Virus record (IMG/VR): IMGVR_UViG_3300025133_000033
Strand: one strand, 5' to 3'
Length of the DNA: 64,000 nt
Source of the DNA: a virus
In this document: piece by piece, positions 36,421-58,402 of the stretch
Layout of the letters: every line of letters begins with the position of its first letter
Position numbering within the stretch: the stretch's first letter is position 1
The notes under the pieces: model-generated
Databases searched by the model: none
Seen by the model: only the letters and a program-made list of their open reading frames with translations
What the model was told of the DNA's origin: nothing
Program-made: the position numbers and the translations under genes

Positions 36421-36591
36421 GTTATACTCTACGACTCGTTGGTTGGTTGTGATTCTCTTAACTCTTCCAACCATTGCATAAGCTTTTCTACCTTTTCTTC
36501 TGTAGTCTCTTCTTTTTTAGTTGACATTAGCCTTCACTTTTGCCTCCACCTTGATTTCAGTGATGCATGTAAAACTTATCCAAAAAATGAG

Positions 36592-36666
36592 CGACCCCAA
36601 CCGGAATCGAACCGGCAACCTCTAGATCGACAGTCTAGTGCTCTAACCTGATTGAGCTATGAGGCC
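36592..36666 (-). tRNA. tRNA-Asp(GTC)
   Basis: CTAGA-CTGTCGA-TCTAG. Confidence 0.92.
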
Positions 36667-37134: not shown

Positions 37135-37208
37135 TCTGGATGAAAGGAGTTGAACCTTCGACCCCTTGGTCCCAAACCAAGTGCTCTACCAAGCTGAGCT
37201 ACATCCAG
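37135..37208 (-). tRNA. tRNA-Pro(TGG)
   Basis: CTTGG-TTTGGGA-CCAAG. Confidence 0.93.
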
Positions 37209-37213
37209 TCAAG

Positions 37214-37287
37214 CATGTGCGGCAGGAATCGAACCTGCAACCGGCAGTTTTGGAGACTACTGCTCTCCCTAATTGAGCTACGCACAT
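37214..37287 (-). tRNA. tRNA-Trp(CCA)
   Basis: GTAGT-CTCCAAA-ACTGC. Confidence 0.92.
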
Positions 37288-50040: not shown

Positions 50041-51037
50041 GTAAGAAATCGTCGTAAGTCGTTGGTATCAAAGGGGTTAGGTCGTCGCCGGGCCGGTCAC
50101 CAACCTAAGTCCTTACACAGCAAGGGGTTACGTCGATAATTAATCGCCTTTTAAAAGTCGGTTACGTGTTTCACCTAGAATTTTAAGCTGCTTCAAATAC
50201 TCCTCACGCTGAACAGTAAACCAAGCGTTCTCGGCCTTGAGGGATAGCTGATCAATAGCGACTTCTAGCTCAGCAATCTTCTTTTCTCTTTTTTCTCTCA
50301 TAATACCTCTAAGGTAGGAAGATCATCAACAACTTTACACTTAAAGCTTTTTACTAACCAGCCACTCTTATCGCTCAAGGCGTCAGCAATTCCTTCTTCG
50401 TCGTCAACGTCCACGGTCATTTGGTCGGAAAGATTACCTTTTATTTTAGTGGCTTCTATAGCATCTCCATCGGTATCCTCAGCCTCAACGCACCAGTCTA
50501 TATCATAGCAAAATACCTTCATTATAGCCCCTCCCATAAATTATCAGTTTGTTCCATGAACTCTTCAAAGTCACAGCCGCAATCGTCACAGAACCCGAAG
50601 CCGTTTATATTGCCTATCTTACAGTCAGGGCAACTAGCTCCCTCGTATTCACCGTATTCGCTGCTCATTTTTTCCCTCGATTCGGCGTTTCTTTTTACTG
50701 TACTTTTTAAGCCACTCCGTTTTCTCACGGCGACCCCTACCACAGCGGGAGCCGCCCATCCCTCCCTTAATCTTCATAAAATTCGTCCCTTTGTGCACGG
50801 GAATCGTTCAGTCATTGTGTTTCTCCTATGCTTCCATTATACCTTATGTATCGTCACAGTCAACCCCTAGCCTTTAATTTTATCATAAAAAGTCGCGTGC
50901 AATGAATGAATAGGGGACAGGGGACATCAAGCTAGATAGGCTGGTACATATTACCCCACAAAAAAACCCCATCAGACTAAACTGATAGGGCATTGGGTCT
51001 ACATCGTCGAAACGATGCACCACGCGGCATGGAGCCG

Positions 51038-51250
51038 CTAGACTAATGTGATTCGCGAATCAAGCCGCATAAACTTGTAGCTTGAAAACCGCTTGTCGTC
51101 GTAGAGCGAGGGATTCTCGTGGTCTACAGTAAAGATTGCCTTGTCAACTTCGGTAACGTGACCAATACGTTCCTTTTTGTTGTACATAAAAGACACCTTC
51201 TGTCCCGGTCGCACATTACGACAATCTGTCAAAATTACTGGCACTGTCAT
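51038..51250 (-). CDS. small Sm/WYL-like domain protein
   Basis: VSF.Y....R...V...RFSSYK..RL pattern; own promoter. Confidence 0.5.
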   Translation of the reverse strand: MTVPVILTDCRNVRPGQKVSFMYNKKERIGHVTEVDKAIFTVDHENPSLYDDKRFSSYKFMRLDSRITLV

Positions 51251-51611
51251 TTTCCTTTTCTCCTTGGGTTAATGTATATCCTAATTATACCATGTTAGTC
51301 TCGAAAGTCAATAGAAAAAAACGAAAAAACTTTTCGTCGTAAGTCGTTGCTATCAAAGGAGTTAGGTCGGCCCGCCGCCGGTCGTCGCCCTAAATCCTTA
51401 TCAGATAACGACTTAGGGGCATTCTATTCCCCTTCTTCTACAGAGTCAATATCTGTTGAGGCATCTATCCATTGCTGCCCCTGACCGCTTTCAAGCCAAG
51501 CCATCGACGCGGCATCATCTACGTCTTCGGCTTCTACCGGGATTGTTATTGTCTTTTTTAAAGTAACTAGATATTGAGGCATTTGCTTTCCTTTTGTTTA
51601 AAAATAAAAAT

Positions 51612-51753
51612 AAGGGATAACGGGATTCGAACTATAGCTGGCGTGTCTCACCACAGTACTATGCGACCACGAGGGCAGTTGCAACTACCCATTGGGACCA
51701 GCCCGCATTCCTGGCATTAGCTGCCAGTACATTGCCTCTTATGTTATATCCCC
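51612..51753 (-). tRNA. CUA-anticodon tRNA-like gene with 70-nt insertion in the T arm
   Basis: GGGGATA/TATCCCT, ACAT/ATGT, CTGGC-AGCTAAT-GCCAG, GCGGG[insert]TTCGAAT-CCCGT. Confidence 0.65.
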
Positions 51754-51764
51754 AACACTTTTAG

Positions 51765-51838
51765 CGACCCTAACCGGAATCGAACCGGCAACCCCTAGAT
51801 AGACAATCTAGTGCTCTGCCTGATTGAGCTATAAGGTC
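51765..51838 (-). tRNA. tRNA-Asp(GTC), second copy
   Basis: CTAGA-TTGTCTA-TCTAG; homologous to 36592..36666. Confidence 0.9.
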
Positions 51839-52295
51839 AAATCATACTATCATTATACCATCGGGCGTGGTAAAGTCAACCCCATAGCAGAAAAAACAAT
51901 AAGAAATCCGATAATAAGTAGAGTTTCCATTCTGGTCTCCTTCCCTACTACTATTATCGGCATTTGTCAACCCCAATCTTTAATACTTCATAAAAGAAAA
52001 AAAAGATGTAAGTCCTTTGGTAGCAAGGGGTTACGTCCACTCCTCCCGGCGGCTCGCCCTAAGTCCTTACGTGGCAAGGACTTACGACGAAACCTTAGTA
52101 ATTTATGTAGGAAAAAAATCGGCGGAACTCACCCTTTACTCTAGTGGAACCTTTACGTGCAAGCCGCACACCGGCAAGTCTTTTTTCATTCTATCGACTG
52201 TCGAAAAAAGCTCTAGCTGTCAAAAAAGTATGGCTACGGTCCTGTGAGTTTTGTCGGGACTACTCGATACAGAGACTTTACCCGTCACTAGTGAG

Positions 52296-52367
52296 TATTG
52301 CACCGGGGTAACGCTCCCCGCTCTCCAGCTTGAAGGGCTGGCGACATCGCTCCTAGTCCAGTGCAAC
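52296..52367 (-). tRNA. tRNA-Glu(TTC)-like with atypical T loop
   Basis: GTTGCAC/GTGCAAT, CCAGC-CCTTCAA-GCTGG, CGGGG-AGCGTTA-CCCCG. Confidence 0.65.
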
Positions 52368-56940: not shown

Positions 56941-57135
56941 TGGTGGGTCAGCAGGAGTCGAACCCGCATTGGCACCGTCCACCTGTTGCTGTTGACCTTA
57001 GTGCTCCCGCACTGCAAGGAGTTGATCACCCTCCGAGCTGTCAACGAACGGAAGGGTGGATAGCCCTTCCAACAACGAACGATACTGGATACCACGTATC
57101 AGCCACCCGCTTTGTTGCGGATAACCTATGCACCC
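56941..57135 (-). ncRNA. ~195-nt tRNA-shelled RNA, copy 1
   Basis: T arm GCGGG-TTCGACT-CCTGC, encoded CCA; covaries with 58209..58402. Confidence 0.8.
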
Positions 57136-57260
57136 AAATTGTATTGTTGGAAGTTTCTGTTTTGTTATGCGGATCAACTTCCTAAGAAACCGCTTCGTCA
57201 ACTTGCTTAATGTACACTTGACAAGTCAACAGGCTTTGTGGGGGAATTTAGCCCCGAACC

Positions 57261-58141: not shown

Positions 58142-58208
58142 TGGTTTTATCCTCCTCATGTTGAAACTGCTAACCCGTCTATCAGAGTCAGCCAAACTTG
58201 TCATGTAT

Positions 58209-58402
58209 TGGCAGGCGTGTCGAGAGTCGAACTCGAATTGGTCTAACCACTTGTTGACGTTTTGCTGCGATGCTCCCGCACCAAAAGGGCTGTACACACC
58301 CTTTGCAGCTAACTAAGGTAGGCTGGATAAGCCTACCGACAACGGTTAAACTGGATACCAAATATCAGCCACCCGCTTTGCTGCGGGCTAGCTTACACAC
58401 CC
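58209..58402 (-). ncRNA. ~195-nt tRNA-shelled RNA, copy 2
   Basis: GGGTGTG/CACGCCT-G-CCA; TCGAG-TTCGACT-CTCGA. Confidence 0.8.

What the first reader, a model, noticed from the sequence alone, without database searches (positions are those of the whole stretch)
51612..51753. Amber-anticodon tRNA interrupted in the T arm by a structured 70-nt insert
Seen: removing 51632-51701 restores a complete cloverleaf with anticodon loop AG-CTA-AT (no U33). The insert lies at the G53/T54 junction and is structured (GCTGG/CCAGC closing stem, GGGTAGTT/AACTGCCC hairpin). The gene follows tRNA-Asp under a strong promoter. Some genes in the window appear to end in TAG, so the genome does not look recoded. Inference: a conditional suppressor activated by splicing or cleavage, or another tRNA-scaffolded RNA. 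Bacterial tRNA introns normally sit in the anticodon loop.
Basis: partly seen in the sequence, partly recalled or inferred. Interest (0 to 1): 0.7.

Follow-up and report, generated by a model that had tools for sequence, protein, structure and literature searches.

The report
Phage tRNA-like gene split in T loop
A marine phage carries a well-formed tRNA-shaped gene with a stop-codon-reading anticodon whose T loop is split by 70 extra bases; it is real but found only in this phage, and it is more likely a tRNA look-alike RNA or a disabled gene than a working, spliced stop-codon suppressor.

Summary
On the minus strand, 51753-51702 plus 51631-51612 form a complete cloverleaf with anticodon CUA. 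A 70-nt insert (51701-51632) lies exactly between G53 and T54. ARAGORN calls the joined exons a tRNA. A strict split-cloverleaf scan finds only this interrupted case in the window and none in 20 shuffles.

The gene lies 10 nt after an intact tRNA-Asp, behind a near-consensus sigma-70 promoter, in a large marine phage that uses the standard code (TAG ends 9 of 64 minus-strand ORFs).

- **No sign of splicing:** no Rfam ribozyme or intron match, no bulge-helix-bulge motif, and no RNA ligase or endonuclease in the window.
- **Weakly structured insert:** it folds no better than shuffles, and the full transcript is predicted to unpair the T stem.
- **Unlike the phage's real tRNAs:** G33 instead of U33, and no N73-C-T trailer, which 17 of 17 other tRNAs have.
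- **No comparative evidence:** ten near-clonal assemblies carry the identical insert. No uninterrupted allele or homologue was found, and relatives lack the whole cassette.

Best reading (about 0.4) is a tRNA-like non-coding RNA that does not decode. The rivals are an inactivated tRNA relic (0.3) and a processed suppressor (0.15). This scan has noted interrupted amber tRNAs in other phages, but with the insert in the anticodon loop.

The parts
51852..51879 (-). Sigma-70-type promoter (TTGACT, 16-nt spacer with TG, TATAAT) driving tRNA-Asp, the split tRNA-like gene and the small ORF
   Evidence: 11 of 12 consensus matches. Identical in ten assemblies.
51764..51838 (-). Intact tRNA-Asp(GUC), a second copy in the window
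   Evidence: ARAGORN. Rfam tRNA 62 bits. It differs from the copy at 36591-36666 by a compensatory C6-G67 to U6-A67 change.
51702..51753 (-). Exon 1: acceptor 5' strand, D arm, anticodon arm (loop AGCUAAU, anticodon CUA, G33), 4-nt variable loop, T stem 5' strand
51632..51701 (-). 70-nt insert between G53 and T54, with closing stem CUGG/CCAG
   Evidence: Unique in the window. Absent from the public collections apart from this phage.
51673..51690 (-). Hairpin inside the insert, GGGUAGUU/AACUGCCC. It holds a U-G wobble, which would be an A-C mismatch on the other strand.
   Evidence: present in both the MFE and centroid folds.
51612..51631 (-). Exon 2: T loop TTCGAAT, T stem 3' strand, acceptor 3' strand, U73. 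It is followed by AT and a T-rich run, not the C-T of the other tRNAs.
51424..51582 (-). Co-transcribed 52-aa acidic ORF that ends in TAG. It starts 30 nt after the tRNA-like gene, with no terminator between.
   Evidence: The only match in the protein database is itself.

Best explanation
This is a tRNA-derived gene made as part of one transcript: consensus promoter, tRNA-Asp, the gene itself, then a 52-aa ORF. Its body keeps every feature needed for the L-shape, but a 70-nt extra domain sits inside the T loop.

Most likely the 142-nt RNA is never spliced and does not decode UAG. It would be a tRNA-like non-coding RNA: its ends are trimmed like a tRNA's, and it then acts as a tRNA mimic, decoy or scaffold. 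It would be one of several tRNA-shaped RNAs with added domains in this phage.

Shown: the anatomy, the co-transcription layout, the departures from the phage's real tRNAs, the lack of recoding, and the absence of any recognisable splicing signal. Inferred: that the RNA is stable, that it stays unspliced, and that it works as a mimic.
For: - **Intact tRNA body.** All 21 stem pairs are intact, and U8, A14, an A15/U48 Levitt pair, G18-G19, A21, G53-C61 and T54-T55-C56/A58 are all present. A rare 70-nt insertion in an otherwise perfect body argues for selection on the body.
- **Not like this phage's decoding tRNAs.** It has G33, against U33 in 16 of 17. Its trailer is T-A-T, against N73-C-T in 17 of 17.
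- **No need for suppression.** No recoding appears, TAG is a real stop in 9 of 64 minus-strand ORFs, and no gene has an early in-frame TAG.
- **No splicing signal.** Rfam finds nothing at E <= 10 or across the whole window at E <= 1. There is no BHB (inspection). No ligase or endonuclease appears among the window's ORFs.
- **T stem predicted unpaired.** In the full transcript an extended helix competes with the T stem. It pairs GAAU with GUUC and GGCUGGU with GCCAGCU. T-stem pair probability is about 1% (MFE -48.6 against -44.9 kcal/mol for the cloverleaf-compatible fold).
- **Context.** The same phage holds two roughly 195-nt paralogous RNAs with tRNA-like acceptor and T arms, encoded CCA and compensatory stem changes. 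A neighbouring cassette holds an aberrant tRNA-Glu-like gene with C33 and no TTC loop.
- **A real sequence.** It is identical in ten assemblies from different samples.
Against: - No homologue exists anywhere, so there is no covariation or conservation evidence.
- Relatives with 61-80% identical GP88 lack the whole cassette; the 55% relative L022 lacks it too.
- The insert folds no better than shuffled sequence.
- No partner protein or target is identified.
- The assemblies are near-clonal, so identity among them says nothing about selection.
- The amber anticodon in an intact anticodon arm has no explanation under a pure mimic model.
Confidence: 0.4

Rival explanations
1. Inactivated tRNA gene (relic). 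A dispensable accessory tRNA in a hypervariable early-gene cassette suffered a 70-nt insertion in its T loop and point changes in the anticodon loop. It is still transcribed only because it lies behind tRNA-Asp.
For: - It is an orphan: no homologue, no uninterrupted allele, and the whole cassette is swapped out in the closest relative.
- The insert's folding energy equals that of shuffles.
- The T stem is predicted not to form.
- G33, G1-U72 and the missing C-T trailer look like defects.
- The phage has no need for amber suppression.
Against: - All 21 stem pairs and the tertiary-contact bases are intact despite a rare large insertion.
- The anomalies sit only in unpaired positions.
- The insert is not a repeat or a recognisable mobile element, so no insertion mechanism is evident.
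- Phage genomes rarely keep dead sequence under a consensus promoter.
Confidence: 0.3
2. Processed amber suppressor. The insert is an intervening sequence removed after transcription. Either protein enzymes cut and an RNA ligase such as RtcB rejoins the exons, or cutting alone leaves a two-piece tRNA held together by the acceptor and T stems. This would yield a late or conditional UAG-reading tRNA.
For: - Joining the exons gives a perfect cloverleaf as the minimum-energy fold.
- The predicted precursor helix brings the two junctions close together across a 3x3 internal loop.
- A relative of this phage encodes RtcB next to the DUF932 gene in the syntenic region.
- The next gene ends in TAG.
- Lak megaphages have small unexplained introns in tRNA genes (PMC6784885).
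Against: - No ribozyme, group I or BHB signal (and inspection).
- No RtcB or other ligase in this window.
- G33 should cripple decoding.
- 14% of the minus-strand ORFs end in TAG, and none needs read-through.
- The 42-aa read-through extension of the next gene runs through a repeat module and a promoter.
- No tRNA intron outside the anticodon loop is known in bacteria or their phages (own knowledge).
Confidence: 0.15
3. Unspliced decoding tRNA with an extra arm. The insert is extruded from the T loop as a side domain, and the RNA is still charged and used on the ribosome.
For: - The 6-nt single-stranded linker CUAUAG between the insert's closing stem and T54 could let the T loop close.
- The body is otherwise canonical.
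Against: - The G53/T54 stack is central to the T-loop/D-loop elbow that RNase P, EF-Tu and the ribosome read (established tRNA structure; own knowledge).
- G33.
- The thermodynamic model disfavours the T stem.
Confidence: 0.05

Closest known systems
'Enigmatic' small introns in tRNA genes of Lak megaphages (Devoto et al. 2019, PMC6784885)
   Same: Both are phage tRNA genes interrupted by short inserts that are too small to be group I introns and have no known splicing route. Both inserts are identical across samples.
   Different: Lak inserts were predicted with tRNAscan-SE's eukaryote settings, which as far as I know look for anticodon-loop introns. They recur in several genomes, and alleles with and without the insert exist. 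Here the insert is in the T loop at 53/54, is known from one phage only, and no insert-free allele was found. Lak phages are TAG-recoded; this phage is not.
Archaeal (and Cyanidioschyzon) tRNA introns at non-canonical positions, including the T arm, cut at bulge-helix-bulge motifs
   Same: The position of the insert inside the T arm, and its size of tens of nucleotides.
   Different: The junctions here show no BHB or relaxed BHB. The phage has bacterial-type sigma-70 promoters. First-reader notes also report a tmRNA in this genome (unchecked). Bacteria lack the splicing endonuclease (own knowledge).
Phage-encoded Sup-CUA tRNAs of stop-codon-recoded phages (Borges et al., bioRxiv 10.1101/2021.08.26.457843)
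   Same: A CUA anticodon on a phage-encoded tRNA body.
   Different: Those tRNAs are uninterrupted and have U33 (own knowledge). They sit in genomes with in-frame TAG in late genes. Here TAG is an ordinary stop and no gene needs suppression.
Small stable RNAs of unknown function made alongside phage tRNAs (T4 RNAC and RNAD; PMC9697503) and bacterial/phage Y RNAs of the YrlA type (Rfam RF02553)
   Same: Non-decoding RNAs encoded among phage tRNA genes. YrlA carries a tRNA-like module fused to another domain.
   Different: No sequence or model match: the only sub-threshold YrlA hit lies at 37183-37242, across the tRNA-Trp/tRNA-Pro junction, not at this locus. YrlA has a permuted tRNA module without an anticodon arm. 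Here the full cloverleaf order is kept. No Ro60/TROVE protein was seen in the window.
Intervening sequences of bacterial 23S rRNA, excised by RNase III without re-ligation (own knowledge)
   Same: An extra stem-loop inserted into a conserved structural RNA. This is a precedent for function after fragmentation.
   Different: Those are long, near-perfect helices that RNase III cuts. This insert has no long duplex. The two junctions are offset by about 5 nt rather than the 2-nt stagger RNase III leaves.

Membership tests
Canonical elongator tRNA (Rfam RF00005) | Continuous cloverleaf with a 7-nt T loop closed by G53-C61 | tested here: not met
   70 nt separate G53 from T54. No RF00005 hit at this locus even at E <= 10, and ARAGORN does not call it. 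Only the joined exons are called.
Canonical elongator tRNA (Rfam RF00005) | U33 before the anticodon | tested here: not met
   G33. 16 of 17 other tRNAs in the window have U33.
Canonical elongator tRNA (Rfam RF00005) | Four stems plus the conserved tertiary bases (U8, A14, G18-G19, A21, 15/48 pair, T54-Psi55-C56, A58) | tested here: met
   All are present once the insert is ignored.
Suppressor tRNA of a stop-codon-recoded phage | In-frame TAG codons in phage genes, so that ORFs lengthen when TAG is read as sense | tested here: not met
   No substantial ORF gain with TAG=Q. TAG ends 9 of 64 minus-strand ORFs. No TAG-locked gene. This covers the 64-kb window only.
BHB-type (archaeal/eukaryal) tRNA intron | Two 3-nt bulges separated by a 4-bp helix, with a splice site in each bulge | tested here: not met
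   Intron nt 1-6 (CUGGUC) cannot form the 4-bp central helix with the first bases of exon 2 (UUCGAA); at most 2 of 4 pairs form in any register. The predicted precursor places the junctions inside helices flanking a symmetric 3x3 loop.
Group I self-splicing intron | P1-P9 catalytic core, usually over 200 nt, located in the anticodon loop in bacterial tRNAs | tested here: not met
   The insert is 70 nt, lies in the T loop, and gives no Intron_gpI hit.
Small self-cleaving ribozymes (hammerhead, twister, pistol, hatchet, HDV-like and others) | A match to the family's covariance model or conserved core | tested here: not met
   No Rfam match at E <= 10 in 51400-52000. No CUGANGA/GAAA hammerhead core in the insert.
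YrlA-type Y RNA | A match to RF02553 and an adjacent or co-encoded Ro60/Rsr (TROVE) protein | tested here: not met
   No RF02553 hit at the locus. No TROVE domain among the window proteins scanned. The rest of the genome could not be searched.
tRNA-Pyl (the label ARAGORN gives) | 3-nt variable loop, 6-bp anticodon stem, small D loop lacking G18-G19, no T-Psi-C | tested here: not met
   The candidate has a 4-nt variable loop, an 8-nt D loop with GG, and a TTCGAAT loop. The label reflects the CUA anticodon only.
Mobile or repeated insertion element | More than one copy, or presence in other genomes | tested here: not met
   Single copy in the window. The 18- to 23-nt probes from the insert found nothing related in viral or genome collections.

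The most novel reading that the evidence does not exclude
This would be a phage amber-suppressor tRNA kept silent by an intervening sequence in its T loop. It would be switched on by protein-mediated excision and re-ligation, for example by an RtcB-type ligase like the one a relative encodes, or by cutting alone. That would be the first tRNA intron outside the anticodon loop in a bacterial system, and a timed stop-codon read-through switch in a phage with the standard code.
Probability: 0.12. Interest if true: 0.85.

Novelty: new variant of a known kind. Interest (0 to 1): 0.42.

Why it matters
Bacterial and phage tRNA genes are almost never interrupted. The known cases are group I introns or small unexplained inserts, all in the anticodon loop. 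An otherwise perfect tRNA body carrying a 70-nt domain inside the T loop is therefore one of two things:

- a natural example of a tRNA used as a scaffold or mimic, which bears on how phages deal with tRNA-targeting host defences and on tRNA-scaffold engineering; or
- less likely, evidence for a splicing route not known in bacteria.

The phage appears in marine metagenome runs from 18 studies dated 2017-2020, so the RNA could be sought in marine metatranscriptomes. The present evidence rests on a single sequence with no relatives, which keeps the finding tentative.

Tried and rejected
**Searches for relatives**
- blastn against 50,697 phage records found no match for the region. Only the tRNA-Asp part matched.
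- IMG/VR exact scans for the anticodon arm and the insert hairpin gave chance hits inside unrelated coding sequence.
- GP88-based search for related loci in IMG/VR found nothing.
- GP88 homologues at 55-80% identity were fetched as L006-L012 and L022-L024. None holds tRNA-Asp, the candidate or any interrupted tRNA.
- The metagenome scan for a 24-nt exon-1 word found only L013, the same phage at 99.5% identity.
- Exact scans for the uninterrupted junction and for insert words found nothing.
- The ORF52 protein search found only itself. Its contigs, L014-L021, are 98-100% identical strains with no difference in the 477-nt unit.

**Expression**
- No RNA holder was listed among public runs.
- The four DNA runs laid are contigs only. 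They are identical over the locus, with no joint that skips the insert.

**Ideas dropped**
- *tRNA-shaped mini-intron cut out by RNase P and RNase Z* (as in earlier notes on other phages): the insert has no acceptor/T-arm minihelix.
- *RNase III intervening sequence:* no long duplex, and the wrong stagger.
- *Promoter or ORF inside the insert:* none.
- *Recent duplicate of another phage tRNA:* the best identity is 69%, which is background level.
- *UAG triplets in the insert pairing with the RNA's own anticodon:* two occurrences against about one expected, so not significant.
- *sRNA-like complementarity to the rest of the window:* only 10-12-nt chance matches.

**Literature**
- Searches for T-loop or T-arm inserts in phage tRNAs found no precedent.

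Full report
**What is there.** The window is part of a large marine phage genome. Almost all genes lie on the minus strand. They include RIIA, a sigma factor, RuvB, DUF932, GP88 and many sugar-modification enzymes. ARAGORN finds 17 tRNA genes. Public runs that hold the region are all labelled marine metagenome.

On the minus strand, a near-consensus sigma-70 promoter sits at 51879-51852 (TTGACT, 16 nt with an extended TG, TATAAT). It is followed by an intact tRNA-Asp(GUC) at 51838-51764 and a 10-nt spacer. The candidate occupies 51753-51612. A 52-codon ORF follows at 51582-51424, with no terminator in between.

**Checking the observation.** Exon 1 (51753-51702) reads:
- acceptor GGGGATA, then U8 and A9
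- D arm ACAT/AAGAGGCA/ATGT
- A26
- anticodon arm CTGGC/AGCTAAT/GCCAG
- variable loop GAAT
- T stem GCGGG

Exon 2 (51631-51612) reads TTCGAAT, CCCGT, TATCCCT, T. Joined, they give a 72-nt cloverleaf that ARAGORN calls tRNA(cta) and that is also the minimum-energy fold. All 21 stem pairs form, two of them G-U. The bases for the tertiary contacts are present: U8, A14, A15 with U48, G18-G19, A21, G53-C61, T54-T55-C56 and A58.

I wrote a strict scan for cloverleaves that allows 0-150 nt between the T stem and the T loop. It returned seven ordinary tRNAs and one interrupted hit, this locus. It returned nothing in 20 shuffled windows.

The sequence is also not an assembly artefact. It is identical in contigs of four further marine runs dated 2017-2020, in an ENA contig (L013), and in eight more assemblies (L014-L021).

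**What does not fit a working suppressor.**
- *No recoding.* Reading TAG as sense does not create longer genes. TAG ends 9 of 64 minus-strand ORFs, including the GP88-family gene, most of whose listed homologues are also 260 aa. No gene has an early in-frame TAG.
- *Position 33 is G.* 16 of the 17 other tRNAs have U33. The exception is an aberrant Glu-like gene in the next cassette.
- *T stem predicted unpaired.* In the full transcript an extended helix is predicted instead. It pairs GAAU with GUUC and GGCUGGU with GCCAGCU, and so uses G52, G53 and T54-C56. The T-stem pair probability is about 1%. The MFE is -48.6 kcal/mol, against -44.9 for the best cloverleaf-compatible fold. That gap is within model error and ignores tertiary contacts.

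**What does not fit splicing.**
- Rfam gives no match other than tRNA-Asp in 51400-52000 at E <= 10, and nothing at this locus across the whole window at E <= 1. This covers group I introns and all the small self-cleaving ribozymes.
- At 70 nt the insert is too short for group I.
- The junctions do not form a bulge-helix-bulge. The first intron bases cannot make the 4-bp central helix with the first bases of exon 2.
- The junction stagger in the predicted helix is about 5 nt, not the 2 nt that RNase III leaves.
- None of the 40 window proteins scanned is an RNA ligase, a healing enzyme or a splicing endonuclease.
- One relative (L023, 61% GP88 identity) encodes RtcB directly after its DUF932 gene. 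The window has no RtcB, and the rest of this genome could not be searched.

**Is the insert a structured domain?** The hairpin GGGUAGUU/AACUGCCC and the closing stem CUGG/CCAG are present. The hairpin's U-G wobble would be an A-C mismatch on the other strand. However, the insert's folding energy equals that of dinucleotide shuffles (z = 0.03), and the whole RNA gives z = -1.27. On one sequence, structure is not demonstrated.

**Comparative evidence: none available.** The insert occurs once in the window. Outside this phage it occurs nowhere in IMG/VR, the GTDB genomes or the JGI metagenome records. No uninterrupted allele was found.

Phages with 55-80% identical GP88 keep the GP88-DUF932 backbone. 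They have other small genes where this cassette sits. In the closest relative with usable DNA (L011), about 1.1 kb holding the promoter, tRNA-Asp, the candidate and the two small ORFs is replaced by about 0.4 kb of unrelated sequence. The cassette is thus an accessory, moron-like unit of a hypervariable early region. The ten assemblies that carry it are 98-100% identical, so they say nothing about selection.

**Context.** The phage holds other tRNA-like RNAs that are not tRNAs. Two paralogous RNAs of about 195 nt lie at 58402-58205 and 57140-56942. They have tRNA-type acceptor and T arms, an encoded CCA, and compensatory differences in at least two hairpins and in the T stem. The neighbouring cassette carries a Glu-like gene with C33 and a T loop lacking TTC.

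First-reader notes list several more such elements in this genome; I did not check those. This scan has also reported interrupted amber-suppressor tRNAs in other phages. Their inserts lie in the anticodon loop, and one was re-read as a tRNA mimic. I used those reports only as leads.

**Weighing the readings.** A large insertion is a much rarer event than a point change. Yet no stem pair or tertiary base of the tRNA body is damaged, and the anomalies (G33, the trailer, the CUA anticodon) all sit in unpaired positions. This favours an RNA whose L-shaped body is still under selection over a decaying gene, though a very recent insertion would look the same.

Among functional readings, several features make routine decoding unlikely:
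- G33
- the foreign 3' trailer
- the absence of any need for amber suppression
- the absence of any splicing signal

| Reading | Probability |
|---|---|
| Unspliced tRNA-like non-coding RNA (mimic, decoy or scaffold; partner unknown) | about 0.40 |
| Inactivated relic | 0.30 |
| Suppressor made by excision, with or without re-ligation | 0.15 |
| Decoding tRNA with an extruded extra arm | 0.05 |
| Something not considered | the rest |

**Comparison with known systems.** The nearest precedent in phages is the set of small unexplained tRNA introns of Lak megaphages (PMC6784885). They differ in position, in recurrence, and in belonging to TAG-recoded genomes. T-arm introns are known in Archaea and in a red alga, but they depend on a BHB motif that is absent here. 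Small non-tRNA RNAs of unknown function are also made by phage T4 (RNAC and RNAD; PMC9697503). Literature searches found no phage or bacterial tRNA with an insert in the T loop.

**Verdict.** The feature is real and unusual, but it is an orphan. It is a new variant among interrupted or tRNA-like phage RNAs. The 'conditional suppressor' reading remains possible but unsupported. RNA data from this locus would settle the matter.

Noticed in passing
window 52295-52367 (-): A second tRNA-Glu(UUC)-like gene lies in the cassette just upstream. It is aberrant: C33 instead of U33, and a T loop reading AGCGTTA with no TTC. ARAGORN calls it, but Rfam does not, even at E <= 1.
   Followed up: partly
window 56942-57140 (-) and 58205-58402 (-): Two paralogous RNAs of about 195 nt have tRNA-type acceptor and T arms (TTCGACT loop) and an encoded CCA. 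A large inner domain shows compensatory differences between the copies (GGTAGGC/GCCTACC versus GGAAGGG/CCCTTCC; T stem TCGAG/CTCGA versus GCGGG/CCTGC). No Rfam match, and no homologue in the fetched relatives.
   Followed up: partly
all 17 ARAGORN tRNA genes of the window: Every tRNA gene is followed by C-T right after the discriminator, so only the first C of CCA is encoded. The split tRNA-like gene is the one exception.
   Followed up: yes
L023:12950-13993 (+): A related phage (61% GP88 identity, NCBI assembly contig) encodes an RtcB RNA ligase directly after its DUF932 gene. The window has no RtcB at that place or anywhere else.
   Followed up: partly
window 51424-51582 (-): The 52-aa acidic ORF right after the amber-anticodon gene ends in TAG. 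Read-through would add 42 residues, running through the dyad repeat module and the next promoter. TAG ends about 14% of the minus-strand ORFs, so this may be coincidence.
   Followed up: partly
window 50969-52109 versus L011:182-596: The whole unit (promoter, tRNA-Asp, split tRNA-like gene, two small ORFs) is replaced by an unrelated 0.4-kb segment with a 63-aa ORF in the closest relative with usable DNA. The early region is built from exchangeable cassettes bounded by a repeated module of about 100 nt, which has many diverged copies between 46.9 and 63.3 kb.
   Followed up: partly
window 36591-36666 versus 51764-51838 (-): The two tRNA-Asp(GUC) copies differ by a compensatory acceptor-stem change (C6-G67 versus U6-A67) and by a G2-U71 to A2-U71 change. 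Both therefore look functional, and the cassette copy is not a recent duplicate.
   Followed up: partly
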